Virus record (IMG/VR): IMGVR_UViG_3300045988_032849
Location: 6,539 to 38,538 of that record
DNA: 32,000 nt
DNA from: a virus
Strand: one strand, 5' to 3'
Numbering within the stretch: the first letter of the stretch is position 1; each line of letters opens with the position of its first letter. Positions 20,766 through 32,000 of this stretch are shown here, in pieces. Under the pieces are notes generated by a model, which ran no database searches, was not told the DNA's origin, and saw only the letters and a program-made list of their open reading frames with translations. A program made the position numbers and the translations under genes.

Positions 20766-21557
20766 ATGTATGATTATGCTTCATTGAAGCGCACGGAATC
20801 AACGGTGCTGCAAAGAGCGCCAGTTGATAACATGCGTATCAACGGAACACCAATTGAAGATATCATCCAAGGGTATCGACAACTTACAGTTAAGGGGCGT
20901 TCGTTGCTTAACCGTGAAATTTCAACCACTCGAGTTCCTGGGCACCGTGGTGTTTGGGTGGACAGTGTCAACGATTCAGAGCGTGAGATTGAAGTTAAGT
21001 ATCAGTTAACTACGGTTACTAGCCAAGTCATGAGGACCTCTTTCCGAGAGCTTAACCGCATTTTGAGAGAGGTAGGGCCTAGCGGTTATCTTGAAGTAAC
21101 TTTTGATGATGAGCCGGATTTCACTTACTACGCAATATTCAAGGAAGCGGACGAAGTCGAGGAAGATAGGCTTTCAGTCATTAGCAGTTTCGTTTTGCTA
21201 GTGCCAGACGGCTATAAAAAACGGGTTCCAGAGCGTTCTAACGGTGTTGTTTATCTAACTTACGCTAAGCAGGTAATACCCGAGAAGATTGTAGCCGTGA
21301 CATCGGCAGCGTCAACAGAATTTGAAATCATCAACGGCCAAACCAAGTTATCGTTTAAGGGTAGCTATGCAGCTAATAAGGAAATCGTCATTAAATTTGG
21401 CACCGAAGAAGTGACTGCTACTTATGATGGTCGTAATATCCTAAGTGAATTACAGCGATTTAGCCCACTTGAGCAGTTTTTTGTCAAAGACGGGGACCGA
21501 TTGAGCGGAAAAAACGTGGTGATTCGTGAAGTTCAGTGGAGGGATGAAAGTATATGA
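20766..21557 (+). CDS. Distal tail protein (Dit, Sipho_tail-like)
   Basis: 263 aa, directly after the tape measure and overlapping the Tal start. Confidence 0.8.
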   Translation: MYDYASLKRTESTVLQRAPVDNMRINGTPIEDIIQGYRQLTVKGRSLLNREISTTRVPGHRGVWVDSVNDSEREIEVKYQLTTVTSQVMRTSFRELNRILREVGPSGYLEVTFDDEPDFTYYAIFKEADEVEEDRLSVISSFVLLVPDGYKKRVPERSNGVVYLTYAKQVIPEKIVAVTSAASTEFEIINGQTKLSFKGSYAANKEIVIKFGTEEVTATYDGRNILSELQRFSPLEQFFVKDGDRLSGKNVVIREVQWRDESI

Positions 21558-24500
21558 TCTATTTATTCGATAAGGACGAAAAACTTATCAAGATTATTCG
21601 CAAGCCTGCAATTAAGACGGCATTGCAAAAATTCAGTCTTACCACTGAAAACTACATTTCAGACCGCTTGACCGTTGAAATGAAAGCCTTGAAGGATGAT
21701 GAACTGGCAAAACTGGAATACATGGCTATTCAGTCAATCGACGATACGCATAAATTCCATTACTTCTACATTGCCCAAGGCAATACCAAAGGGGATATCA
21801 CAACGCTTGTCGGTGTTCAATCCGGTATTGAGGAGCTACGCAAGACAGTTGTTTACGACAAACGCCCAACAGACCAACGTGCTAGACCAGTCATCGAATG
21901 GCTTTTAACTGGCACAAACTGGTCCCCTCGCTTCGTTGCTGAAACAAACCCAAAGAGCACTAATTTCTATTACATTTCCACATTTGATGCACTGAAAAAA
22001 GTGTGCAAAGTGTGGGGCTTAGAAATGCAGTTCTTTGTTGAAATGAACGGCGCTCAGATTGGCGCTAGATACATTGATTTCAAGCGCAAAATAGGTGAAG
22101 CAGTCGGTAAGCGTGTAGTTTATGGGCATAACGCCCTTGAAATTCTGCAAGAGGTTGAGAAGACAAACCTATACACTGCCTTGGTAGGGCGTGGAAAAGG
22201 GGAACAAGTCAGTTCAGCGGAAGATACTGGAAAAGATGCTGACGGTTACGGACGCAAAATCAACTTCGAGGAAGTTGTCTGGTCGAAAGCCAAAGGGGAC
22301 CCACTAGACAAGCCCCTCGGTCAGAAGTATCTTGAAATTCCAGAAATGACCGCTAAATATGGCATTAAGCAACCAGACGGCAAGATGCGCCCTAAGATTG
22401 GTTTTGTCGAATTTAGTGAGGAAGAGGATAAGAACGAGCTTATCAAACAGACTTATGATGCTTTGATTGAGTCTTCAAGACCTAAACTAACACTTAAAAC
22501 GTCAACAGTGTATCTCAAGGGTGTTCAAATTGGCGACACTATCCGAGTAGCCCGACATGACAGACACCTTGATTACGATACACGCATCTTTGAGATCACG
22601 TTCAATCGCTTAAACAACGAATCTAGCGACATCAAGCTAGGGGACCGAGTTAGCGAAAGCAACGACGCAAAGGTACAGAGTACCGTCAACAAAGCTCTTG
22701 ATGAGTTTAAAGCTGGTGAGTTTACTGAGTTTGTCAAAAAGTTGCCAGAGTTTATCCCGTCAGCTAATGGTTTTAACCATAACTGGTACACAAGCACTGA
22801 TCCAACAGAATCTCACCCTGGACAAGTCCTAATCAATGATTCTTGGTACAAACCAGACCCAGAACATGAGGGACACACTATCATGTATCGCTGGACTGGG
22901 GAAATGTGGCAAGAGGTACTGAGAACATGGGACGGCACGGGGCTTCAAGACAAAATCAAGAAAGAATTCGAGAAAGTCGCAGCCGACATGGCTAAACAGC
23001 AATCAGAACACGACAGAGTGGTTGCTGAAATCACAGCCAAGGCCACTAATGCGGAAACATTAGCCAGTTCAGCTAAATCAACCGCAGAGGACGCTTTTAA
23101 CCGTCTGAATGATGTTAAGAGCGAAGCTATCGCAGAAGCTCGTTACTTGGACACAGTCGAGCGTGCAGAGACAGAGAAGAAGATTGCTGCATCTAAAAAA
23201 GACGCACTTTCAGAAGCTGTCAAACTGGTCGATAACGCTAAAAGTACGCTAAACACGGACTTATCAGAGACTGAAAAGAGAGTTGAAGCTCTAAAGGGTT
23301 CTATTGGTACATTGTCAAATGACACGTCAGTACAGTTTGCCAAGATCAATAACGCCTTGATTTCAGTAGCTAGCAAGCAAGACGTTGATAAGGTCAGTCA
23401 GCGCGTGTCTAATGCTGAGACGGTTTTGACACAGCAAGCAGGGCAGATTTCAGCCAAGGCTAGCAAAGAGGATGTCAACGCTGTTTCTGGGCGTTTAAAC
23501 AAAGCTGAGAGTTCTTTGACGGTGCAGGCTGGGCAAATCAGCCAGAAAGCCAACAAGCAGGACGTAGACACGCTGACAGGACGTGTGAATCGAGCTGAAA
23601 CATCAATCACTCAACAAGCGGACATGATTGCATCCAAAGCTAATAAGCAAGAACTTGACAATGTCAATAATCGAGTGTTGAACGCTGAAAGTCGTATCAC
23701 TCAACAAGCTAACGAGATTAGCCAACGAGTGAAGACAAGCGATTTTAACAATGCTACTCAGAGACTTGCGACGGCTGAGAGCTCAATTACTCAACTAGGC
23801 AATAAAATTACTACTGAGATTAGTAGAGTGGACAGCAAGATTCCAACTGATTTCGGAAGTCGTAACTTGATTTTGAAATCAGCAGATTTTGAGAATCTAC
23901 ACCGACAGCCCGGAGGAGGTGGGAATACTACTACTGACGGGCAAGCATTCCTAATCAAGTCTCACAGCTATTCAAATGATGTTTATGGTGGTATCTCATG
24001 GAATATGGCTATCCCAGAAATCAAAGCCGGCGAAACATTCTCGCTCTTGGTTCCGGTTTACATTGACAGCGGGGTAGACATTGACCGTGGCGCTATGATT
24101 ATCATTAAAAATCATAAAAACAATGACAATCTAGTTGCTTACAATATCCCAACAGACCTCAAAAATGAGTGGTTTGACGTTAAGCTTATTTTCACTGCCG
24201 GCAGGGGCATCACACTCGGTGAATGGCCATTCTATATTACAGTTATTAGAAACGGCTATTTGAAAATCAAACCACCTATGTTAGTTAGAGGGACACTCAT
24301 TCCCTTGCAGCATACAGTAGCACCAGAGGATGTCGAAGCTGAAATAAGCACGGTTAAAACGACGATTACACAAACCGAGCAGGGTGTCAGTCAGTTATCT
24401 CAGAAACAATCTGAAACAGATAGCCGTATCACTAACGCTGAAACTACGGTCAATCACTTGGTCGATGAAGTTTCGTCAAAAGTGTCTAAGACTGATTTTG

Positions 24501-26593
24501 ACAAACTCTCTAAGAGTGTAGCGGCTAATAGTACCGCAATCACTCAGACTGATAACAAAATTAGTTTGAAAGCAGACCGGACAGAAGTCCAAACCGCTAA
24601 AGCTACGGCTGACAGTGCAGTGTCTAAAGGCCAAGAATTAGAGCGTAAAATCAACCAGACTAATGCAGAGTTACGTGTTACAGCGGATTCTATCGCCCAA
24701 AAGGTTTCAAGAGTTGATTTTGACAACCTTGGGAATAAAGTCACAAACGCTGAAACGCAAATCAGCACGTTAGCTGGCAAGATTGAAACTAAAATCTCTA
24801 GGGTTGACCTAGACAGTGCTATTGATAGCAAAGGCTTTTTGAAAGAGTCTGACGTCAACAGATTGGTCGATAACAAAGGTTTTGCGACGGCTACGGCTGT
24901 AACAAACCTTATCCAACAATCAGAACAAGGGACAACGCAGCTTATTAGCGAGGTCAAGAAACAGATTCCGTCGATTGACACGCTTTCTGTTGGTGGTGAG
25001 AACTTGATCCGTAACTCAGCTTTTCCGGACAGCCTGGACGGCTGGGGCTATTGGGAAGCATCGCAGCCTAACTCGAATTTATCTGTGTCAAGTCATTCAT
25101 TCTATTACAACGGTTCTAAGCCGTTGTTTTTGCTTTCAACAACAACAACAACAACAACGCCTAGCGCTACGATGAGATTTCCAGTGAAACGAAATACCAC
25201 TTATTCCCTTAATGTTTCGATTTCGGCAGGCGGTAACCTAAAGGGGATGGATATCTATTTTCTTGGGCGCAAGTCAAACGAAACTAAAACATTTAGCAAA
25301 GTAGTTAACATCAAGCATTTCGATGGTTCGCCATCCACAAGCGGTGTTAAGAAATTTCACTTCACTTTTAACTCCGGCGACTGCGATGAAGGCTTTATCC
25401 GTATCGATAATACTGGTACTACCAACGGCAGTCAGTCATTGCTATTCTTCACCGAGCTTGATTGTTACGAGGGAACTATGGACCGCGCTTGGCAACCATC
25501 GCCAAAAGATGCAAGTCAAGAGGTGACAGTCAAGTTCAACGAAATCAAGTCAACCGTTGACAGTTTCAGCCGTACCATTGGCGAACATGGGCAGTCTATT
25601 TCTCAGATTATCCAAGATGCCAAAGGTACGGTTTGGAAGGTGGAGAACCTAGAGGATAAGTGGGCGTTTAATCTCGGTGTCACTAACAAGCAACTAGACA
25701 AGCTAGACACCGGGCTTGAAGCTACCAAGTCCGAAATGTCCCAGATTGCTGGTTCATGGGCTGTCAAGAACCTAACAAGGTCGGGGGATGTACTCAACCA
25801 AATCAATCTTAACAAAGACGGCTCGGTTAAAATCGACGGTAAACTGGTTCAAATCACTGGTTCTACTTACATCGAAGATGGTGTCATTAGCTCGGCTAAA
25901 ATTGGAGAATTATCAGCAAGTAAAATCACTAGCGGGCGCTTAAACGCTTCACTGGTTGATGTTGTCAATCTAAACGCTTCAAGCGTTACTAGTGGCACGT
26001 TTACTGGTCTTAATTATCGAGGCGGACGGATTGAATCGTTAAACGGTTCAATGTTTTTCGATTTGAATAGCAACTATCTTCAAATGGGAGCAGATACCGC
26101 TTCAATCAGACGTGTTCAGCCCGGATATCCTGCGCAGTTTATCCGATACGAGACAAGCATCGACCAAGGCAACTATCGTTCCAAAACTATTATCGGTTCT
26201 AACCGAGAAGGGACGGACGCTTACAATGCTACGACGTTTTCTGGTGTTGTGATCCAAAACAACACTAACAACGATATCGATACATTGCATCTCTATGGTG
26301 ATAGAACATACTTTAGACATACGTTTACTAACGATGGATGGGATTTAGATGCGGTAACGCAACGACTTCGTCCGGGCATGATGGAAAAAGATTCACAGAT
26401 TTGGTCAGTCCAGTTTGCGACGCCGAAAAACGGGAAAGATTTTAGCACTGGAGCAATCAATATCACAGAGTCTCTTGCAGCGGTTTGGCGAATGTTCAAA
26501 CACTTCGAAGGAAATATCAAAATGCCAAACGAGCTTAAAACACTCATTCAGCATGGTTACAATAACTACGGCATCCACATGCCAGTGTTGTAA
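21554..26593 (+). CDS. Tail-associated lysin / host-specificity protein (Tal-type minor structural protein) with coiled-coil repeats and two CBM-like insertions
   Basis: 1679 aa. The N-terminal 380 aa or so is prophage-tail-like. Five 30-aa repeats are present. Two modules start with the (G)xNLIxxS motif at about nt 23850-24300 and 24990-25500. The C-terminal part (ISSAKIGELSASKITSGRL) is fibre-like. Confidence 0.85.
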   Translation: MIYLFDKDEKLIKIIRKPAIKTALQKFSLTTENYISDRLTVEMKALKDDELAKLEYMAIQSIDDTHKFHYFYIAQGNTKGDITTLVGVQSGIEELRKTVVYDKRPTDQRARPVIEWLLTGTNWSPRFVAETNPKSTNFYYISTFDALKKVCKVWGLEMQFFVEMNGAQIGARYIDFKRKIGEAVGKRVVYGHNALEILQEVEKTNLYTALVGRGKGEQVSSAEDTGKDADGYGRKINFEEVVWSKAKGDPLDKPLGQKYLEIPEMTAKYGIKQPDGKMRPKIGFVEFSEEEDKNELIKQTYDALIESSRPKLTLKTSTVYLKGVQIGDTIRVARHDRHLDYDTRIFEITFNRLNNESSDIKLGDRVSESNDAKVQSTVNKALDEFKAGEFTEFVKKLPEFIPSANGFNHNWYTSTDPTESHPGQVLINDSWYKPDPEHEGHTIMYRWTGEMWQEVLRTWDGTGLQDKIKKEFEKVAADMAKQQSEHDRVVAEITAKATNAETLASSAKSTAEDAFNRLNDVKSEAIAEARYLDTVERAETEKKIAASKKDALSEAVKLVDNAKSTLNTDLSETEKRVEALKGSIGTLSNDTSVQFAKINNALISVASKQDVDKVSQRVSNAETVLTQQAGQISAKASKEDVNAVSGRLNKAESSLTVQAGQISQKANKQDVDTLTGRVNRAETSITQQADMIASKANKQELDNVNNRVLNAESRITQQANEISQRVKTSDFNNATQRLATAESSITQLGNKITTEISRVDSKIPTDFGSRNLILKSADFENLHRQPGGGGNTTTDGQAFLIKSHSYSNDVYGGISWNMAIPEIKAGETFSLLVPVYIDSGVDIDRGAMIIIKNHKNNDNLVAYNIPTDLKNEWFDVKLIFTAGRGITLGEWPFYITVIRNGYLKIKPPMLVRGTLIPLQHTVAPEDVEAEISTVKTTITQTEQGVSQLSQKQSETDSRITNAETTVNHLVDEVSSKVSKTDFDKLSKSVAANSTAITQTDNKISLKADRTEVQTAKATADSAVSKGQELERKINQTNAELRVTADSIAQKVSRVDFDNLGNKVTNAETQISTLAGKIETKISRVDLDSAIDSKGFLKESDVNRLVDNKGFATATAVTNLIQQSEQGTTQLISEVKKQIPSIDTLSVGGENLIRNSAFPDSLDGWGYWEASQPNSNLSVSSHSFYYNGSKPLFLLSTTTTTTTPSATMRFPVKRNTTYSLNVSISAGGNLKGMDIYFLGRKSNETKTFSKVVNIKHFDGSPSTSGVKKFHFTFNSGDCDEGFIRIDNTGTTNGSQSLLFFTELDCYEGTMDRAWQPSPKDASQEVTVKFNEIKSTVDSFSRTIGEHGQSISQIIQDAKGTVWKVENLEDKWAFNLGVTNKQLDKLDTGLEATKSEMSQIAGSWAVKNLTRSGDVLNQINLNKDGSVKIDGKLVQITGSTYIEDGVISSAKIGELSASKITSGRLNASLVDVVNLNASSVTSGTFTGLNYRGGRIESLNGSMFFDLNSNYLQMGADTASIRRVQPGYPAQFIRYETSIDQGNYRSKTIIGSNREGTDAYNATTFSGVVIQNNTNNDIDTLHLYGDRTYFRHTFTNDGWDLDAVTQRLRPGMMEKDSQIWSVQFATPKNGKDFSTGAINITESLAAVWRMFKHFEGNIKMPNELKTLIQHGYNNYGIHMPVL
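23372..23821 (+). repeat. Five tandem 90-nt (30-aa) coding repeats inside Tal
   Basis: Units of the form (S/N)K.DVD.V..R...AE...TQQA..IS.KA repeat five times. Related units recur around 24460-24800. Confidence 0.8.
25136..25159 (+). repeat. (ACA)6-ACG trinucleotide run encoding poly-Thr inside CBM-like module 2
   Basis: tca aca aca aca aca aca aca acg translates to STTTTTTT. Confidence 0.95.
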
Positions 26594-26832: not shown

Positions 26833-27418
26833 TTTCAGTGTCACATCAAGTTATCTGACCAACCCGACAACAACAAGGATTGCTATCCAGTCCAAAGATG
26901 GCTCGACGTGGTTGACCCGTGATGTTCCCGGCGACCACACTAACAAGACGGATGAAGCTAAAATCCAGCTTATTCTGGATATCTTAGCGACTGAGTTGGA
27001 CCCTGCGGGAGCATTGGCACGCTATCAAGCCAAGTCAGAGGAATCGATTAAAGACCTCGACAGCCGCTTGAATTTAGCTGAGAAAGTCGCTGAACAAGGC
27101 GAGTTAACTCGTAAAATTGCTAACGTGTCCATTCTCAATGCGGTAATGAGCCAAAACATCCAGTACGGCACAATCTACAAGCAATATCTGGAATTGTTGC
27201 CAGTCGCTAAAAAAGGCGATGCATTCAACGCTGGTGACATCTTCGCTATCGAAGCCCCGGACCACGAAGAAGTGGACGGAGAAGGCAAATTGGTACTTAT
27301 CCAAGTTAACGGCTCTTTCACTTACGATAATCAACCGTTCGCTGATTTTGCAAAGGGTGGCAAGTTAGAAAATAACGGGGTTGCTACAGCATGGCTATTC
27401 AAACCGAAGGAGAATTGA
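26819..27418 (+). CDS. Hypothetical protein between Tal and the holin (199 aa)
   Basis: RBS AAGGAG at 26808. The stop overlaps the holin start (TGATG). Confidence 0.7.
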   Translation: MNKSNFSVTSSYLTNPTTTRIAIQSKDGSTWLTRDVPGDHTNKTDEAKIQLILDILATELDPAGALARYQAKSEESIKDLDSRLNLAEKVAEQGELTRKIANVSILNAVMSQNIQYGTIYKQYLELLPVAKKGDAFNAGDIFAIEAPDHEEVDGEGKLVLIQVNGSFTYDNQPFADFAKGGKLENNGVATAWLFKPKEN

Positions 27419-27852
27419 TGGTACAGAAACCAGACGGTATTTTTGGGGTTTTCGATGTGGTCAGAGACTTCTATGCACACGGTATCGATGAGCATTTATG
27501 GGTGTTTCTGCTAATGATTATCATTTTTAGCGACATCATTATCGGTGTGTCGAGGGCTTGGGCCGCTCATGAGTTTTCAAGCTCTAAATTTCGTAAAGGG
27601 CTAGTCAGCCATACCGCCATGATTACATTTGTAGCCATCTTTTATCCGTTTGCGGTCTTCATGAATCTGGGCGGTGTCCTAGATACATTTATCTTTGCAA
27701 TGATTGCAGCCTACGGCTCTAGTATTTTGGCTAGCTTATCAGCATTAGGGGTTGAAATCCCTTTTATCGACAAATACGTTAAGAGAAATATTGATAAAGA
27801 GAAGTTTTTTCTTAACTCAGAAGAAGAAAAGGAGAATACAGACAATGATTAA
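27418..27852 (+). CDS. Holin (multi-TM, Phage_holin_4-like)
   Basis: ATG follows AAGGAGA. Three to four hydrophobic helices (LWVFLLMIIIFSDIIIGV, AMITFVAIFYPFAVFM, FIFAMIAAYGSSILASL) and a charged C-terminus. Confidence 0.8.
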   Translation: MVQKPDGIFGVFDVVRDFYAHGIDEHLWVFLLMIIIFSDIIIGVSRAWAAHEFSSSKFRKGLVSHTAMITFVAIFYPFAVFMNLGGVLDTFIFAMIAAYGSSILASLSALGVEIPFIDKYVKRNIDKEKFFLNSEEEKENTDND

Positions 27853-28075
27853 TTTGAAATTACGACTTAAAAATAAAGTAACGCTAGCAGCTCTTATCTC
27901 AGCAGTTTTTATTATGCTGAGACAATTTGGTCTTGAGATTCCACACAACATTCAAGAAGGTGTCAATACTCTATTGATGATCTTGGTTCTACTCGGTATC
28001 GTTGTTGACCCTACGACCAAGGGTGTGGCAGACAGTGAACAAGCATTGAACTACAACGAACCTCGTGAGGACTAG
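27845..28075 (+). CDS. Holin (phi LC3 / Phage_holin_1-like, 76 aa)
   Basis: MINLKLRLKNKVTLAALISAVFIML ... LLMILVLLGIVVDPTTKGVADSEQALNY matches the family pattern. RBS AAAGGAGAA. The track start 27752 lies inside the previous gene. Confidence 0.8.
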   Translation: MINLKLRLKNKVTLAALISAVFIMLRQFGLEIPHNIQEGVNTLLMILVLLGIVVDPTTKGVADSEQALNYNEPRED

Positions 28076-28077
28076 CT

Positions 28078-28530
28078 ATGGCTAAACTCATGACCTCTAT
28101 CAATCAATTAGAAGGCGGTGACATTCTCAAGAGTGGGGATGTTACTTCCTTGTTTGGTTTTGAAATTCTAGGGGCTGATGGCAAGCGTATGGAGCTATCC
28201 GGTACTGGTAAGCTCTCGCTATCAAACAACGAAACCGTAGCACTCTATCAAGATGTAACCGTAGAGAACGGACATTTTACGTTTGTCATGGGTGATGTCG
28301 TAGAGCCTGGCACTTACTACCTTGAAATTAAATTAGGTGGGCATATTTTCCCATCTAACAATTTTAAGGTCAAAGTTAAGAGCTCACTGAATGCGGACAG
28401 TGCTATTCCATCGGACAAGAGCCCTAAATTAAAACTACTAGCGGATGAATTGCGAGAATCTGGGTTAATCAGTGGTGGCACTGATACGACGGAAGACCTC
28501 GTAAATGCCTACAATCTAGCTAAAATTTGA
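28078..28530 (+). CDS. Ig-like / BppU-N-like small structural-type protein (150 aa)
   Basis: Predicted beta-rich domain (FEILGADGKRMELSGTGKLSLS ... GTYYLEIKLGG). The C-terminal tail is EDLVNAYNLAKI. The assignment is tentative. Confidence 0.5.
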   Translation: MAKLMTSINQLEGGDILKSGDVTSLFGFEILGADGKRMELSGTGKLSLSNNETVALYQDVTVENGHFTFVMGDVVEPGTYYLEIKLGGHIFPSNNFKVKVKSSLNADSAIPSDKSPKLKLLADELRESGLISGGTDTTEDLVNAYNLAKI

Positions 28531-28543
28531 AAGGAATAACTAA

Positions 28544-28870
28544 ATGAGTAAATTACACGATTTTGCCCAAGCTGTTGGTGCAGACATTAAGGAAATTAAA
28601 ACTAGCCTAGCAGGCAAGGCTGATAAGGGTTTGGAAGGTGTTACCGAAGAACGTTTGACGCAAGCTCTCACACAAGTTAAGACTGACATCATTGGTGGAG
28701 CTCCCGAAAACCTTAACACACTCAAGGAAATTGCTGATAACATCGAAGCAGCTGGTGGCAATACCGGCAGTGGTATTATTACGAAAATGACTGAATTGGG
28801 TGGCCGTCTCGATACCATTGAGCAAGAAGACCTTGTAAGTGTATATAATTCTGCTAAAAACGCCCTCTAA
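28544..28870 (+). CDS. Tail-fibre-like coiled-coil protein (108 aa)
   Basis: Contains GGAPENLNTLKEIADNI, resembling the G-APE.LDTLKELA fibre repeat. The C-terminal tail is EDLVSVYNSAKNAL. Confidence 0.55.
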   Translation: MSKLHDFAQAVGADIKEIKTSLAGKADKGLEGVTEERLTQALTQVKTDIIGGAPENLNTLKEIADNIEAAGGNTGSGIITKMTELGGRLDTIEQEDLVSVYNSAKNAL

Positions 28871-28882
28871 GGAGGTTGATTT

Positions 28883-30298
28883 ATGAGCAATTTAAGCAAG
28901 GCTATTGAAGCCATCGGGCATGATATTGGTGAAATTAAAGGGAAACAATCTTCATCGTTGACTATCAATCAAGCGTATGGGTTATTTCCAACATATAATA
29001 ACTTTTTCCAACAGGTTGTAGAGCAAAACAAATGGGCGGAAGACCCGCTTGTAACAAAATCTCAACTACCTACAAAAGATATTAAAGAAGTTCAATCTGG
29101 TGTTATCGAAAACAAATACGAATTGCTAAACCCCTCGAATGGTGAACGATTTATCAGTCCTATTAGTTATTGGTATCCTGACTTCCATAAGACAACGTCT
29201 AAATGGAACCAAGCAATTACCATGTCTGACAAACTCGGATTTGTTATTATTAACCCTAATAGCGGACCCGGCGACCAAAAAGACGATATGTATGTTCAAC
29301 AAGCTATTCGTGCTAAAGCTGTAGGGGCCACTGTACTTGCATACGTAGCAACTGGATATGGTAAGGTTGAGATTGACTCTATTATCAGTCAAATCAAACA
29401 ATATCAAGAGTGGTACACAATCGAAGGCGTATTCCTAGACGAGACAATTAACGGGTTTTCTGAACAAGCTGATCTAATACCTAAATATATCGAAATGCAC
29501 AAACGTATTAAAGATACATACGGAAAAGACTTTATTGTTGTGGCTAATCCCGGTTCAAACGTTATTGAGTCTTTGTTAGACTCTGCTGACGTCTTTATGA
29601 ACTTCGAATCCGCTGCTGAAAAATATATTGATGGTTCTCGTGAAGTGACACCTTCATATTGTTTATCACAACCTTATAACAAGTTCTGGCATTGCGTCTA
29701 CAATGTTACAAAAGACAACTATAAGGCGGTTCTTGAAAAGGCTGATAAAGAGCATGTCGGACATCTCTATCTGGTTGACAATCCAAGTTATGGCAATCCA
29801 GCGGCCCCTTGGTTGCAAGAGGCCATGCGTGATTGGGCAAATAAAAACACCTCACTTGCAAAACGTGTTGAACGGTTGGAAACTTCTGGCGTGCCCACAA
29901 GTACCGTATCAGCACCAGAAATGGCTGTTTACAAAATCCCAGACGAATATTTTCCAGCATCGTTTAAGGGCAAAATAACGGCTAAAATGGCCGTCTATGG
30001 CAATGCTATTGATATCTCTATCAAGGTTAATGAGTATATCAGTAGCTCAACCGAAACAGATAATGACGAAGCGACGGAAACATGGCCAGAAAACTTGCTA
30101 GACTACGCTGGCAACCTAACTATTCCATTCACTAAGTATTCGTCTAAACAAGGTTATGCGCCGTTTCTGGTCGCTAATGCAAACGGTAAGCTCACGTTTA
30201 GAGGTTCTGGGATGGACGCAAACGGGGCATGCTTCGGACATGTCAACTATTTAGCTACTAACCCAACCGTTCCGACTGGTTGGACGAAATTAAATTAA
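28883..30298 (+). CDS. Spherulin-4 / GH135-like putative polysaccharide hydrolase with a fibre-like N-terminus and a beta-rich C-terminal domain
   Basis: The ordered motifs YWYPDF, W, VIINPNSGPG, Y, AYVATGYG, YQEWY and GVFLDE match my recollection of spherulation-specific family 4. Strong RBS TAAGGAGG. Confidence 0.65.
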   Translation: MSNLSKAIEAIGHDIGEIKGKQSSSLTINQAYGLFPTYNNFFQQVVEQNKWAEDPLVTKSQLPTKDIKEVQSGVIENKYELLNPSNGERFISPISYWYPDFHKTTSKWNQAITMSDKLGFVIINPNSGPGDQKDDMYVQQAIRAKAVGATVLAYVATGYGKVEIDSIISQIKQYQEWYTIEGVFLDETINGFSEQADLIPKYIEMHKRIKDTYGKDFIVVANPGSNVIESLLDSADVFMNFESAAEKYIDGSREVTPSYCLSQPYNKFWHCVYNVTKDNYKAVLEKADKEHVGHLYLVDNPSYGNPAAPWLQEAMRDWANKNTSLAKRVERLETSGVPTSTVSAPEMAVYKIPDEYFPASFKGKITAKMAVYGNAIDISIKVNEYISSSTETDNDEATETWPENLLDYAGNLTIPFTKYSSKQGYAPFLVANANGKLTFRGSGMDANGACFGHVNYLATNPTVPTGWTKLN

Positions 30299-30311: not shown

Positions 30312-31058
30312 ATGGCAACAGATAATGACATCATTCAATTTGCAGAAGACCTAGCTAATGCTGAGGTTGGTACCGATGCAGATGGATCATGGGGGACACA
30401 ATGCGTTGACCTGCCTAACTCTATCTCAATTAACTTCTTTGGCCGTGCTCTTTGGGGTAACGCCATCGACTTGCTAAACTCAGCGGCAGCAGCAGGCTAT
30501 GAAGTGGAATACAACCAAGAAGGCAACCTTGATAGCCGTCCACGCCGTGGGGCTGTATTCGTCATGGATACTACTTACATCTATGGCCACTCTTACGGGC
30601 ACACTGGTCTGGTTATCGAAGATTCAGACGGCTACACTATGCGAACTATCGAGCAGAATATTGACGGCAACGCTGATAGCCTTTATATTGGCGGTCCTGC
30701 TCGTTACAATACACGTAATTTTGACGGCATTGTAGGTTGGTTCTATTTCCCAACGGATAACCAATCACAAGCCCCTGCACCAACTCCGACCCCGTTTGAT
30801 GGTATAATTACTATTAACGAGGAAACCGGGACATTCACGGTTGAAGTCTCAGCTCTTAATGTTCGAGCTGGTGCCGGGCTAGGTGCTGAAATCGTGGCAG
30901 TCTATGGAGCCGGTGAAACTATCAACTATGACGGCTGGTGCGACGTTGACGGCTATATCTGGATTAGCTACATTGGCGGGTCTGGTAATCGCCGCTTTGT
31001 CGCAGTCGGTCAATCAGAGAATGGTCGCCGTATCACATCATTCGGATCATTCGCCTAA
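30312..31058 (+). CDS. Endolysin: N-terminal CHAP domain plus C-terminal SH3b (SH3_5) domain
   Basis: The catalytic Cys context is WGTQCVDLPN and the His context is GHTGLVIE. A P/T/A linker (APAPTPTP) follows. The SH3b part is LNVRAGAG.GAEIVAVYGAGETINYDGWCDVDGYIWISYIGGSGNRRFV. Strong RBS. Confidence 0.9.
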   Translation: MATDNDIIQFAEDLANAEVGTDADGSWGTQCVDLPNSISINFFGRALWGNAIDLLNSAAAAGYEVEYNQEGNLDSRPRRGAVFVMDTTYIYGHSYGHTGLVIEDSDGYTMRTIEQNIDGNADSLYIGGPARYNTRNFDGIVGWFYFPTDNQSQAPAPTPTPFDGIITINEETGTFTVEVSALNVRAGAGLGAEIVAVYGAGETINYDGWCDVDGYIWISYIGGSGNRRFVAVGQSENGRRITSFGSFA

Positions 31059-31151
31059 ATTAAAACCAAGACCACGAATCAAAATAAAATAAAAAGGAGT
31101 ATATCACCTCCCGACAGACCACAGTTCGGACATCATGGTGGTAGTGGTCGA

Positions 31152-31180
31152 AGCCCTGGCATTTGCTGGGGCTTTTTTTA
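31152..31180 (+). terminator. T1, late-operon intrinsic terminator
   Basis: AGCCCTGGC-ATTT-GCTGGGGCT forms a 9-bp stem and is followed by TTTTTTTATTT. Confidence 0.8.
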
Positions 31181-31182
31181 TT

Positions 31183-31191
31183 TGGTATAAT
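31183..31191 (+). promoter_or_regulatory. P1, extended -10 TGgTATAAT
   Basis: Perfect TGnTATAAT 3 nt after the T1 T-run. Confidence 0.5.
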
Positions 31192-31197
31192 ATATCT

Positions 31198-31247
31198 AGG
31201 AAAGTGCCAGTAACTCTACGGGGTCTGGTGCGTTTTTTATTTTTTTG
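31198..31247 (+). ncRNA. Predicted short RNA 1 (about 50 nt; P1 to T2)
   Basis: Bounded by P1 and by hairpin 31204-31231 (7-bp stem including 2 G-U pairs) followed by GTTTTTTATTTTTTT. Confidence 0.3.
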
Positions 31248-31254
31248 TTATAAT
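31246..31254 (+). promoter_or_regulatory. P2, extended -10 TGtTATAAT
   Basis: Perfect TGnTATAAT embedded at the end of the T2 T-run. Confidence 0.5.
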
Positions 31255-31260
31255 GTTATT

Positions 31261-31304
31261 GATTTTGATGAATAAGTACCGCTTTCGAGCGGTTTTTATT
31301 TATT
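31261..31304 (+). ncRNA. Predicted short RNA 2 (about 45 nt; P2 to T3)
   Basis: Ends in ACCGCT-TTCG-AGCGGT (6-bp stem with a UUCG tetraloop, 31278-31293) followed by TTTTATTTATTT. Confidence 0.3.
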
Positions 31305-31315
31305 TGTGTTATAAT
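31305..31315 (+). promoter_or_regulatory. P3, TRTG-type extended -10 TGTGtTATAAT
   Basis: Perfect Gram-positive -16 TRTG motif plus TATAAT. Confidence 0.55.
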
Positions 31316-31321
31316 ATACCC

Positions 31322-31460
31322 ACAGCAAGTAAGTCTTGACTGTTCCAAAGACTGATTAAGTTCAGCGCCATGTAAGCTATGTGCACGTAGCCCGATGGAA
31401 TTTATGGAACGGGTGCCGTCGTGCCCACCGAAAAGGGCTATTTGAGAGAGGGCCCTTTTT
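31322..31460 (+). ncRNA. Predicted RNA 3 (about 140 nt; P3 to T4), multi-hairpin
   Basis: Internal hairpins are AGTCTT/AAGACT (31329-31351), GCTA/TAGC (31376-31391) and GGGTGC/GTGCCC (31411-31426). The terminal stem AAAAGGGC/GCCCTTTT lies at 31431-31460. Confidence 0.3.
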
Positions 31461-31470
31461 GTGTTATAAT
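31460..31470 (+). promoter_or_regulatory. P4, TRTG-type extended -10 TGTGtTATAAT
   Basis: Identical 11-mer to P3. Confidence 0.55.
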
Positions 31471-31476
31471 ATGATT

Positions 31477-31523
31477 ATCTATCATAGGCAAAGAGCTATG
31501 AGTTTCCTCGTAGCTCTTTTTTA
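31477..31523 (+). ncRNA. Predicted short RNA 4 (about 47 nt; P4 to T5)
   Basis: Ends in an 11-bp hairpin AGAGCTATGAG-TTTC-CTCGTAGCTCT followed by TTTTTT. Confidence 0.3.
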
Positions 31524-31599
31524 TGTTTGCTAATCTCTACGATAAGTGATAACATAGGTTTCGGAATACTTGGCGTCATTTCGATAAATTTCTCGAACT

Positions 31600-31629
31600 G
31601 CCCCGGCTTTATGTCGGGCTTTTTATTTT
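31600..31629 (+). terminator. T6, intrinsic terminator
   Basis: GCCCCGGC-TTTAT-GTCGGGC (one bulge) followed by TTTTTATTTT. It is followed by a decayed promoter copy, TGTGTATAGCAT. Confidence 0.6.
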
Positions 31630-31713
31630 GTGTATAGCATTAGACATTTAATCTAAATAGAGGTACACTATAGACGGACTTTCACGTTCAATGTTTTTGT
31701 TTTTTTCATGCCG

Positions 31714-31744
31714 CTTGGTAGCTCATGCTGCCAAGTCTTTTTTT
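31714..31744 (+). terminator. T7, intrinsic terminator
   Basis: CTTGGTAGC-TCAT-GCTGCCAAG forms a 9-bp stem and is followed by TCTTTTTTT. Confidence 0.75.
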
Positions 31745-31749
31745 ATAAA

Positions 31750-31772
31750 AAGGGGCAAATAAGGGGCAATAA
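31750..31772 (+). repeat. Tandem AAGGGGCAA(A)TAAG motif; a third AAGGGGCAAA lies at 31988-31997
   Basis: Direct reading. Copies lie immediately after terminators T7 and T8. Confidence 0.6.
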
Positions 31773-31890
31773 GTGTAAACTTTAGTAACTTTATGTGCAT
31801 TTTACCGTCTACATCTTACATGCATATGTCCTTATTTAATAGGTTTTCTTCCTATTATATACGCATTTCAAATGGCGCTAACAGAATACC

Positions 31891-31982
31891 GTGGTTTGAA
31901 ATCATTCTACAACTTGAAAAAATAAAACGTTGATTTAACAACGTTTCTGAGGACTCTAGGTTTAGCCTAGGGTTCTTTTTTT
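31891..31982 (+). ncRNA. tracrRNA-like element: type II-A anti-repeat-like 5-prime segment, two hairpins and a terminator (nexus region absent)
   Basis: The reverse complement of 31891-31913, GTTGTAGAATGATTTCAAACCAC, resembles the 3-prime half of streptococcal II-A repeats. CAACTTGAAAAA (31910-31921) also occurs in tracrRNA. Hairpins at 31925-31946 and 31951-31975 are followed by TTTTTTT. Confidence 0.3.
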
Positions 31983-32000
31983 CTACTCAAGGGGCAAAGA

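What the first reader, a model, noticed from the sequence alone, without database searches (positions are those of the whole stretch)
28078..30298. Three-gene fibre/depolymerase-like cassette inserted between the holins and the endolysin, ending in a spherulin-4 / GH135-like enzyme
The usual arrangement is holin followed directly by lysin. Here three genes with strong RBSs intervene. The first is a 150-aa Ig/BppU-N-like protein. The second is a 108-aa coiled-coil protein containing the fibre repeat GGAPENLNTLKEIADNI. The third is a 471-aa protein whose core carries the ordered motifs YWYP, W, VIINPNSGPG, Y, AYVATGYG, YQEWY and GVFLDE. I recognise that series as the spherulation-specific family 4 / GH135 (Sph3-like) fold, a (beta/alpha)8 hydrolase family known from cleavage of fungal galactosaminogalactan. 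As far as I know, a GH135-like enzyme has not been characterised as a phage depolymerase. Its fibre-like N-terminus and beta-rich C-terminal 140 aa suggest a virion-borne or lysis-accessory enzyme acting on a GalNAc/Gal-containing capsule, exopolysaccharide or cell-wall polysaccharide. The genes look structural but are located after the holins.
Basis: partly seen in the sequence, partly recalled or inferred. Interest (0 to 1): 0.65.

Follow-up and report, generated by a model that had tools for sequence, protein, structure and literature searches.

The report
Phage accessory fibre with GH135-like glycanase
A temperate Streptococcus salivarius/thermophilus-type phage carries, between its holin and lysin genes, a three-gene fibre module whose last protein has a sugar-cutting domain of the fungal Sph3 (GH135) family, an enzyme type not yet studied in phages and most likely used to bind or cut a host surface polysaccharide.

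Summary
Three tightly packed genes (150, 108 and 471 aa) sit exactly between the second holin and the CHAP/SH3_5 endolysin of a 38-kb temperate Streptococcus siphophage.

Gene 3 is a clear Spherulin4/GH135 homologue:
- Pfam gives 110 bits against a cut-off of 30.
- There is a direct sequence hit to Sph3.
- The predicted fold matches Sph3 best (TM 0.73).
- Counterparts of Asp166, Glu167 and Glu222 are conserved.

Gene 1 is an Ig-like sandwich. It is homologous to the N-terminus of a 707-aa post-Tal esterase-tipped protein of phage Str-PAP-1. Gene 2 is one unit of a widespread tail-fibre repeat.

The cassette itself is not rare. All 80 related viral contigs examined have it at this position. In 71 of 74 complete cases gene 3 is only a 90-aa stub. 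Two carry the GH135 form and one carries a probable beta-helix form. The beta-helix distal module is 71% identical to that of a tail-module protein.

My best reading (about 0.6) is a virion-borne accessory fibre with swappable glycan-degrading tips. A lysis-phase accessory glycanase is not excluded (about 0.2). No enzyme activity or virion location was tested. I rate it a new variant of a known kind, of moderate interest.

The parts
27391..27852 (+). Holin 1 (Phage_holin_4_1), upstream neighbour of the cassette
   Evidence: Pfam E = 2.2e-12; PHROG holin
27842..28075 (+). Holin 2 (Phage_holin_1, 77 aa from ATG 27842). Its stop codon lies 2 nt before the gene 1 start.
   Evidence: Pfam E = 5.3e-19; junction sequence
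28078..28530 (+). Gene 1, 150 aa. Ig-like beta-sandwich (residues 7-101) plus two C-terminal helices that end in the motif EDLVNAYNLAK. Proposed anchor or adaptor piece of the fibre.
   Evidence: phrog_6487, E = 1.5e-39. AF2 model and fold searches. The N-domain is homologous to the N-terminus of Str-PAP-1 gp17, a 707-aa post-Tal protein with an SGNH esterase domain.
28544..28870 (+). Gene 2, 108 aa. Helical fibre-repeat protein. Its N-terminal motif is shared with gene 3 and its C-terminal motif with gene 1.
   Evidence: phrog_4757, E = 1.7e-20, and tail-fibre PHROGs. A sensitive search finds the same unit repeated in 400-2750-aa proteins that match tail-fibre families. Terminal motifs.
28694..28744 (+). 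Fibre repeat motif GGAPENLNTLKEIADNI (gene 2, residues 51-67)
   Evidence: this is the region matched in long tail-fibre proteins
28883..30298 (+). Gene 3, 471 aa. N-terminal adaptor, GH135/Spherulin4-like catalytic barrel and a lineage-specific C-terminal domain.
28883..29110 (+). Gene 3 N-terminal adaptor (residues 1-76). It is conserved in the 90-aa stub, 294-aa, 471-aa and 575-aa variants.
29168..29812 (+). Spherulin4 / GH135-like (beta/alpha)-barrel core (residues 96-310)
   Evidence: Pfam PF12138, 110 bits. phmmer to Sph3 5D6T/5C5G, E about 2e-8. Foldseek top hits 5C5G/5D6T, E = 4.5e-13, TM 0.73.
29438..29443 (+). Codons for Asp186-Glu187, which align with Sph3 Asp166-Glu167
   Evidence: Alignment. 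D186 is invariant and E187 is conserved in at least 90% of sequences. Codons checked. The role of D166 comes from bioRxiv 10.1101/113696 and PMC10485009.
29606..29608 (+). Codon for Glu242, which aligns with Sph3 Glu222. Asn222 (29546-29548) is also invariant.
   Evidence: PMC10485009, PMC12054363
29870..30295 (+). Gene 3 C-terminal domain (about residues 330-471). Fold unknown; found only in this lineage.
   Evidence: Low pLDDT. No PDB or Pfam hit. Among deposited phages only VA460 has it.
30312..31058 (+). Endolysin (CHAP + SH3_5), downstream neighbour of the cassette
31150..31175 (+). First strong terminator-like hairpin after the late operon. There is none of comparable strength inside the cassette.

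Best explanation
Genes 1-3 encode a three-piece accessory fibre made late in infection, on the same transcript as the holins and the lysin.

- Gene 1 is an Ig-like sandwich followed by helices. I propose it is the piece that docks on the virion (tail tip, baseplate or neck).
- Gene 2 is a single tail-fibre repeat unit that acts as shaft or adaptor.
- Gene 3 starts with an adaptor segment that shares its first 19 residues with gene 2. It then carries the working end: a GH135/Sph3-like (beta/alpha)-barrel glycoside hydrolase with an intact Asp/Glu pair, followed by a small C-terminal domain of unknown fold.

On the virion the enzyme would bind and cleave a host surface polysaccharide during adsorption. 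The target would be an exopolysaccharide or a cell-wall polysaccharide, possibly one with alpha-linked GalNAc by analogy with Sph3. This is how other depolymerase-tipped fibres work.

What is shown: homology, predicted fold and catalytic residues of gene 3; the fibre nature of gene 2; the modular swapping of gene 3 tips; and the operon layout.

What is inferred: assembly of the three proteins, their location on the virion, enzyme activity and substrate.

The position between holin and lysin is a conserved trait of this phage lineage. I do not read it as evidence of a role in lysis.
For: Evidence on gene 3:
- It scores Pfam Spherulin4 E = 1.7e-31 over 226 of 239 profile positions.
- It matches Sph3 chains 5D6T and 5C5G directly by sequence.
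- The confident core of its AF2 model (residues 90-320) finds Sph3 first, at E = 4.5e-13 and TM 0.73. The next hit is at 2.8e-6.
- D186, N222 and E242 are invariant in 19 sequences that include a fungal homologue, and E187 is conserved in at least 90% of them. D186, E187 and E242 align with Sph3 D166, E167 and E222.

Evidence on gene 2:
- It matches tail-fibre PHROG families.
- In an exhaustive search its motif region recurs, often several times, in 400-2750-aa proteins dominated by tail-fibre families.

Evidence on gene 1:
- Its N-domain is homologous to the N-terminus of Str-PAP-1 gp17. That protein is encoded directly after Dit and Tal and ends in a GDSL/SGNH esterase domain.
- The best BFVD fold matches are N-termini of long phage proteins.

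Evidence that gene 3 is modular:
- The same 76-residue N-terminus carries no tip (90-aa form), a 190-aa beta domain (EJ-1, Javan374), the GH135 domain, or a probable beta-helix (575-aa form).
- The distal 515 residues of the beta-helix form are 71% identical to the distal part of an 831-aa protein encoded right after Tal in locus L017. Gene 3 therefore exchanges tips with a tail-module gene.

Evidence from other phages:
- Spherulin4 domains sit in tail-fibre settings elsewhere. Rothia phage Spartoi gp21 lies between minor tail proteins and fibre-like gp22/gp23.
- Rctr41k gp46 is the last of three large, unannotated consecutive genes.
- P0031 has a long repeat-rich, fibre-like N-terminus.

Other points:
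- Genes 1-3 have no signal peptide or membrane segment.
- The only strong terminator follows the lysin.
Against: - No virion proteomics or imaging exists for any member that I could find.
- Gene 1 has no specific structural match to a protein of known position in a virion. PDB gives only generic Ig-like folds.
- In 71 of 74 related loci gene 3 is a conserved 90-aa stub with no tip, so the common form of the module does something that needs no enzyme.
- The module stays next to lysis genes in very different phages: between two holins in the myovirus EJ-1, after the lysin in Javan374, 315.5 and T12, and beside the holin in a Staphylococcus warneri phage.
- A Spherulin4 fibre-like protein also follows lysin and holin in an unrelated contig.
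- In this phage the cassette is not in the tail module.
- Activity and substrate are untested.
Confidence: 0.6

Rival explanations
1. Lysis-phase accessory glycanase. The three proteins stay soluble in the cytoplasm. They reach the wall through the holin lesions together with the endolysin. The GH135 domain then cuts the wall-associated polysaccharide or the exopolysaccharide from the inside, which helps lysis or frees progeny from debris and capsule. This would be analogous in logic to LysB of mycobacteriophages.
For: - The cassette is co-transcribed with, and lies physically inside, the holin-lysin unit, with no internal strong terminator.
- The module is always next to lysis genes in sipho- and myoviruses of Streptococcus and in a Staphylococcus phage.
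- In an unrelated contig a Spherulin4 protein and a GDPD protein follow the lysin and holin.
- Like the endolysin, genes 1-3 lack signal peptides.
Against: - Fibre repeats, an anchor-like N-domain and swappable tips are hallmarks of virion fibres, not of known lysis enzymes.
- The fused homologue in Str-PAP-1 sits directly after Tal.
- The order relative to holin and lysin varies between phages, which is unexpected for a functional unit.
- Most cassettes have no enzyme at all.
Confidence: 0.22
2. Lysogenic-conversion gene (moron). The GH135 enzyme is made by the prophage to remodel the host's own exopolysaccharide or biofilm, as Sph3 does within fungal galactosaminogalactan synthesis.
For: - The cassette lies at the prophage end near the attachment site, where morons usually sit. 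In 315.5 and T12 the related module is next to speA.
- Sph3 itself is a biosynthesis-associated hydrolase (PMC12054363).
Against: - There is no convincing promoter or terminator of its own.
- There is no signal peptide or membrane anchor for export.
- Spacing to the holin and lysin genes is translationally tight.
- Genes 1 and 2 have a fibre architecture.
Confidence: 0.06
3. The GH135-like domain is catalytically silent and serves only as a carbohydrate-binding head of the fibre.
For: - Many phage receptor-binding proteins use enzyme-derived folds for binding only.
- The substrate is unknown and identity to Sph3 is only about 20%.
Against: D186, N222 and E242 are invariant and E187 nearly so. 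Several aromatic and Asn residues of the family are also invariant from phage to fungal members. This argues for a retained active site.
Confidence: 0.07

Closest known systems
Sph3 of Aspergillus (GH135, Pfam Spherulin4 PF12138; PDB 5C5G, 5D6T), a retaining endo-alpha-1,4-N-acetylgalactosaminidase of galactosaminogalactan biosynthesis
   Same: - The family profile is matched well above threshold.
- The predicted (beta/alpha)-barrel fold is the same.
- Aligned Asp-Glu and Glu residues have identical 56-residue spacing.
- Invariant Tyr, Trp and Asn positions are shared.
   Different: - Structural-alignment identity is only about 20%.
- There is no membrane anchor.
- The domain is embedded between a phage fibre adaptor and an extra C-terminal domain.
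- It is encoded by a phage of a Gram-positive coccus, and its substrate is unknown.
Depolymerase-tipped phage tail fibres and tailspikes (conserved N-terminal anchor plus exchangeable enzymatic distal domain)
   Same: - There is a conserved N-terminal adaptor with alternative distal modules.
- One of those modules is shared with a tail-module protein.
- Fibre repeats are present in the partner protein.
   Different: - The catalytic fold is a TIM-like barrel of GH135, not the usual right-handed beta-helix.
- The fibre appears to be split into three small polypeptides.
- The genes lie after the holins, not in the tail module.
- Virion location is unproven.
Streptococcus phage Str-PAP-1 gp17 (annotated 'neck passage structure' or 'neck protein'; 707 aa)
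   Same: - The N-terminal sandwich domain is homologous to gene 1, including an internal copy of the gene 1 C-terminal motif.
- It ends in a carbohydrate-active enzyme domain.
   Different: - It is a single polypeptide encoded directly after Tal and before the holin.
- Its enzyme is a GDSL/SGNH esterase, not GH135.
- The 'neck' label is an annotation whose basis I could not trace.
LysB-type lysis accessory enzymes (mycobacteriophages)
   Same: It is an extra envelope-degrading enzyme encoded inside a lysis cassette.
   Different: LysB is a lipolytic esterase. The recorded searches did not examine LysB itself. Fibre repeats, an anchor-like N-domain and tips shared with tail genes are features of virion fibres rather than of lysis enzymes, and they are present here.

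Membership tests
GH135 / Spherulin4 (PF12138) | Match to the family profile above the curated threshold | tested here: met
   110 bits against a gathering score of 30.2, E = 1.7e-31, profile positions 7-232 of 239
GH135 / Spherulin4 (PF12138) | (beta/alpha)-barrel fold like Sph3 | tested here: met
   The AF2 core has block-mean pLDDT of about 65-97 (residues 90-320). Foldseek finds 5C5G/5D6T first, at E = 4.5e-13 and target TM 0.73. The next hit is at 2.8e-6.
GH135 / Spherulin4 (PF12138) | Catalytic acidic residues equivalent to Sph3 Asp166 (Glu167) and Glu222 | tested here: met
   D186, E187 and E242 align with them. D186 and E242 are invariant and E187 is conserved in at least 90% of 19 sequences.
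GH135 / Spherulin4 (PF12138) | Retaining endo-alpha-1,4-N-acetylgalactosaminidase activity | not testable with these tools
   Needs recombinant enzyme and a substrate.
GH135 / Spherulin4 (PF12138) | Formal CAZy/dbCAN assignment | not tested
Virion-borne phage depolymerase fibre | Conserved N-terminal anchor with exchangeable distal domain | tested here: met
   The same 76-residue N-terminus carries four kinds of distal part. One tip is 71% identical to that of a post-Tal protein.
Virion-borne phage depolymerase fibre | Encoded within the tail morphogenesis module | tested here: not met
   In the window it lies after both holins. Only the fused homologue in Str-PAP-1 lies directly after Tal.
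Virion-borne phage depolymerase fibre | Physical presence in the virion | not testable with these tools
   No proteomic data were found in the literature searches.
Virion-borne phage depolymerase fibre | Right-handed beta-helix catalytic domain (typical, not obligatory) | tested here: not met
   The GH135 form has a barrel fold. The rare 575-aa variant shows only a weak pectinesterase-type cap motif: Pfam E = 0.007, PDB E = 0.043.
BppU (baseplate upper protein) N-terminal domain, for gene 1 | Match to Pfam BppU_N | tested here: not met
   No hit for gene 1 at E up to 1. The 315.5 homologue scores E = 0.092, below the cut-off.
BppU (baseplate upper protein) N-terminal domain, for gene 1 | Fold similarity to BppU | tested here: inconclusive
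   PDB gives only generic Ig or macroglobulin domains. BFVD lists a 'BppU domain protein (fragment)' at E = 5.8e-4 and a 'baseplate component' at 1.2e-3.
Holin-endolysin accessory proteins | Membrane segment, signal sequence or lipobox | tested here: not met
   The highest 19-residue hydropathy is 1.04, and none of the three proteins has a hydrophobic N-terminus.

The most novel reading that the evidence does not exclude
The module is not structural at all. It would be a third functional component of Gram-positive lysis cassettes: a soluble fibre-like complex that passes through holin lesions and strips the wall polysaccharide or exopolysaccharide, with GH135, beta-helix or other tips matched to the host glycan. 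This would explain why it stays beside the holin and lysin genes across sipho- and myoviruses of streptococci.
Probability: 0.2. Interest if true: 0.75.

Novelty: new variant of a known kind. Interest (0 to 1): 0.5.

Why it matters
**Enzymology.** Confirmation would add GH135 to the catalytic folds used by phage polysaccharide-degrading fibres. Only fungal Sph3 has been characterised in that family, although most family members are bacterial (PMC12054363).

**Host biology.** It would point to a GalNAc-type or related glycan on S. salivarius/thermophilus as a phage-relevant surface structure.

**Applications.**
- Phage resistance of dairy starter cultures. VA460, a phage recorded with S. thermophilus VA460 as host, carries the same gene.
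- Oral and gut streptococcal ecology. The exact protein recurs in many metagenome assemblies.
- Antibiofilm enzymes, since Sph3-type hydrolases disrupt GalNAc-rich matrices.

**Annotation.** The finding flags an uncharacterised three-gene module that is common in streptococcal prophages, including the speA-carrying phages T12 and 315.5, and that is still annotated as hypothetical everywhere. It also suggests that 'spherulation' genes reported in viral metagenomes as sporulation-related auxiliary genes (PMC8269230) may be fibre enzymes; this is my inference and I did not inspect those sequences.

Tried and rejected
- The NCBIfam scan of genes 1-3 and the beta-helix variant gave nothing.
- The PDB sequence search gave nothing significant for the gene 1 profile or for gene 2. 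The best fibre-related hit was 80alpha FibU at E = 0.6, which I treat as a lead only. The gene 3 C-terminal domain gave nothing at all.
- The C-terminal domain of gene 3 is found in no deposited phage except VA460, and its model is unreliable. Its role stays open.
- Two scans of the species-representative genome collection, with gene 3 and with gene 1, returned no relatives. The host therefore rests on deposited phage records (S. salivarius, S. thermophilus).
- The original Sph3 paper was not held. Catalytic residues were taken from secondary sources. One of them prints 'Asp196', which I read as a slip for Asp166, given the D166A variant and the chain numbering.
- I looked for flanking repeats or RNA elements that might mark a mobile insertion. 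The repeats were trivial and there were no Rfam hits.
- I looked for lactococcal neck-passage-structure homologues of the gene 1 domain. None appeared; the domain was found only in Streptococcus phages and four Staphylococcus phage records (two listed, both from S. warneri).
- Literature searches for virion proteomics or a discussion of this module found nothing usable.
- I considered and rejected the idea that the cassette is a recent, unusual insertion. It is the norm in the lineage.
Full report
**1. Observation**

Upstream lie two holins. The first is Phage_holin_4_1 at 27391-27852. The second is Phage_holin_1, best read from ATG 27842 to 28075. Downstream lies a CHAP+SH3_5 endolysin at 30312-31058.

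The genes are packed like one translational unit. The holin stop is followed after 2 nt by the gene 1 ATG, with GAGGA upstream. AAGGA precedes gene 2. GGAGG precedes gene 3 and the lysin. The only strong terminator-like hairpin follows the lysin, at 31150-31175.

**2. The phage**

The window is most of a roughly 38.4-kb temperate siphophage of the Streptococcus salivarius/thermophilus group. Its gene order is replication, packaging, head, tape measure, Dit, a 1679-aa Tal, two small ORFs, holins, cassette, lysin.
- Partial DNA relatives are the S. salivarius phages Javan536, SA-TP2 and YMC-2011 and the S. thermophilus phage VA460.
- The exact gene 3 protein is indexed in 35 blocks of the assembly collection. 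Of these, 28 have a longest contig of 20-50 kb. The contigs shown are 27-38 kb; three of the four carry an integrase, and one shows a flanking LtaS-family gene (probably host) instead.

**3. Gene 3 is a GH135/Spherulin4 homologue**

- Pfam Spherulin4 scores 110 bits (cut-off 30.2, E = 1.7e-31) over residues 96-310.
- phmmer finds the Aspergillus clavatus Sph3 chains 5D6T and 5C5G directly, at E about 2e-8.
- An AF2 model built on 19 homologues is confident for residues 90-320 but not for either end.
- Foldseek places Sph3 first, at E = 4.5e-13 and TM 0.73 on the target. The next hit is nearly seven orders of magnitude worse.
- In the alignment with Sph3, the phage DE of GVFLDE pairs with the FFDE of Sph3. 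From the chain numbering, that is Asp166-Glu167.
- The E of NFES pairs with Glu222. The 56-residue spacing is identical.
- D166A abolishes Sph3 activity (bioRxiv 10.1101/113696).
- Asp166, Glu167 and Glu222 are given as the putative catalytic residues (PMC10485009; PMC12054363).
- D186, N222 and E242 are invariant in 19 sequences that include a fungal homologue, as are Y96, W108, N124, Y154 and Y202. E187 is conserved in at least 90% of them.

The enzyme is therefore very probably an active glycoside hydrolase. Its substrate cannot be read from sequence. Alpha-linked GalNAc is an analogy with Sph3, not a result.

The last 140 or so residues have no detectable relatives outside this lineage.

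**4. Genes 1 and 2**

Gene 1 (phrog_6487):
- It models as a beta-sandwich (residues 7-101) followed by two helices.
- PDB matches are generic Ig, macroglobulin or filamin domains.
- In BFVD the best matches are N-termini of long phage proteins. A 'BppU domain protein' fragment appears at E = 5.8e-4.
- By sequence, the sandwich is homologous to the N-terminus of Str-PAP-1 gp17 (707 aa). That gene follows Dit and Tal directly and ends in a GDSL/SGNH esterase domain.

Gene 2 (phrog_4757):
- It hits tail-fibre PHROG families.
- An exhaustive HMMER search found about 40 small stand-alone relatives, plus long proteins of 400-2750 aa in which the motif region recurs several times.
- Eight of the ten long proteins I scanned match phrog_4757. 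Seven of those eight also match families annotated as tail fibre or tail protein.

Shared terminal motifs:
- Genes 1 and 2 end in the same motif (EDLVxxYNxAK).
- Genes 2 and 3 begin with the same motif (MSxxxxFAQAxGxDIKEIK).
- Both pairings persist in the EJ-1 and Javan374 versions, which are only 30-50% identical.

I read these motifs as assembly interfaces. That is inference.

None of the three proteins has a signal peptide or membrane segment.

**5. Population survey**

I examined 80 IMG/VR loci that encode a gene 1 relative of 85-93% identity.
- Every locus in which the neighbouring genes could be read shows the order holin_1, gene 1, gene 2, gene 3 N-terminus, then, where the contig reaches it, a lysin.
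- At least three lysin types occur downstream.
- Of 74 loci with a complete gene 3, 71 encode a conserved 87-90-aa stub consisting of the adaptor plus a short coiled coil.
- Two encode the 471-aa GH135 form.
- One encodes a 575-aa form. Its distal part carries a weak pectinesterase-type cap motif, which suggests a right-handed beta-helix.
- Three stub loci keep an out-of-frame relic of the last 25 or so codons of the GH135-type gene between the stub and the lysin. In those loci the enzyme form was therefore lost by deletion or recombination.
- The distal 515 residues of the 575-aa form are 71% identical to the distal part of an 831-aa protein encoded right after Tal and before the holins in L017. 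About twenty further loci show the same arrangement.

Gene 3 therefore trades distal modules with a gene in the post-Tal position of the tail module.

**6. Wider distribution**

The gene 1/gene 2 pair occurs in many streptococcal prophages, always near the lysis genes but in different orders.
- EJ-1, a myovirus: between a holin-like ORF68 and ejh/ejl.
- Javan374: after the lysin.
- S. pyogenes 315.5 and T12: after the lysin and next to speA.
- A Staphylococcus warneri phage: a gene 1 homologue alone, beside the holin.
- Str-PAP-1 and Mushu: upstream of the holin, as one long protein directly after Tal in Str-PAP-1 and as two adjacent 'neck protein' genes after the tail genes in Mushu.
- YMC-2011 lacks the cassette. 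Its holin-lysin junction matches both edges of the window's cassette.

**7. Spherulin4 domains in other phages**

- Rothia phage Spartoi gp21 lies between the minor tail proteins and the fibre-like gp22/gp23.
- Rctr41k gp46 is the last of three large, unannotated consecutive genes.
- P0031 has a long, repeat-rich, fibre-like N-terminus. It lies after a GH25 lysin and a holin, and is followed two genes later by a GDPD protein that has tail-fibre matches.
- An Atacama soil study reported viral 'spherulation-specific family 4' genes (mean protein length 1265 aa) and proposed a sporulation role (PMC8269230). In the light of the above, a fibre enzyme is an alternative worth testing. This is my inference; I did not inspect those sequences.

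**8. Interpretation**

The evidence best fits a virion-borne accessory fibre built from three polypeptides, with exchangeable glycan-degrading or glycan-binding tips. The GH135 tip is one rare variant. I give this a confidence of about 0.6.

The main rival is a lysis-phase accessory glycanase released through the holin lesions (about 0.2). It is kept alive by three facts:
- the module's constant adjacency to lysis genes in unrelated phages;
- the lack of any proteomic evidence;
- the fact that most cassettes carry no enzyme at all.

A prophage-expressed moron and a binding-only domain are less likely, because there is no separate promoter or export signal and because the active site is conserved.

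**9. Novelty**

Searches of the held literature for GH135, spherulin or PF12138 together with phage terms found no characterised phage enzyme of this family. A 2025 survey of Streptococcus phage lysis modules notes only that some modules contain intercalated genes. The module is annotated 'hypothetical' in the deposited genomes I inspected; exceptions are single 'tail fiber protein' labels in Javan374 and Javan384 and the 'neck protein' labels in Str-PAP-1 and Mushu.

I rate this a new variant of a known kind. It is a depolymerase-type fibre with an unstudied catalytic family, a split three-piece build and an unusual genomic position.

**10. Limits**

- There is no activity, substrate or virion data.
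- The ends of gene 3 are poorly modelled.
- The BppU and neck labels for gene 1 are untested annotations.
- The host is inferred from related deposited phages only, because the genome-collection scans were empty.

Noticed in passing
window 28489-28527, 28544-28600, 28826-28867, 28883-28939: Genes 1 and 2 end in the same 11-residue motif (EDLVxxYNxAK), and genes 2 and 3 begin with the same 19-residue motif. Both pairings are kept in the EJ-1 and Javan374 cassettes at 30-50% identity. They look like docking interfaces.
   Followed up: partly
L009:7069-7158, L014:4377-4466, L016:7056-7145: An out-of-frame relic of the last 25 or so codons of the GH135-type gene 3 sits between the 90-aa stub and the lysin. 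In these phages the enzyme domain was deleted or recombined away.
   Followed up: yes
window 31100-32000: The region after the lysin holds a dense run of terminator-like hairpins on the + strand, starting at 31150, 31278, 31490, 31602, 31713 and 31949. The 6-kb scan found 19 sites where 4.4 were expected. In related contigs no gene is called for about 0.9 kb before the integrase. There were no Rfam matches.
   Followed up: partly
window 27752-28075 and 27842-27852: The mechanical ORF for the second holin starts at TTG 27752. The Pfam match and gene calls in related contigs fit ATG 27842 or nearby (76-77 aa). That start overlaps the last 11 nt of the first holin gene.
   Followed up: partly
window 21554-26593: The 1679-aa Tal has only an N-terminal Prophage_tail match. 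It contains a run of similar helical repeats of about 35 residues (…VSxRxxxAExxxTQQAxxIxxKAxKxDV…). Unlike its relatives, this phage has no separate DUF859 or beta-helix gene between Tal and the holins.
   Followed up: no
L073:4162-5351, L074:7071-8857; L001:6395-8253: In some relatives the CHAP lysin gene is split after codon 29 by about 1 kb. The VA460 lysin is split by an endonuclease gene. These interruptions look intron-like. The window's lysin is intact.
   Followed up: no
L093:17157-19259: The same phage, outside the window, carries a 700-aa gene with Big_8 and Collagen_bind domains just after the lysogeny switch. It is a possible adhesin-type moron.
   Followed up: no
L091:130-8857: An unrelated metagenomic phage contig has the order GH25 lysin, a 103-aa ORF, holin, two small ORFs, a 790-aa Spherulin4 fibre-like protein, two ORFs, then a GDPD protein with tail-fibre matches. 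This is a second case of envelope-glycan enzymes placed after the lysis genes.
   Followed up: partly
L008:4986-7262, L099:4029-6270: In the S. pyogenes phages 315.5 and T12, a related four-gene module lies between the lysin and the speA toxin gene. It consists of a gene 1-like 200-aa protein, a 257-aa fibre protein and two more ORFs, all annotated hypothetical.
   Followed up: partly
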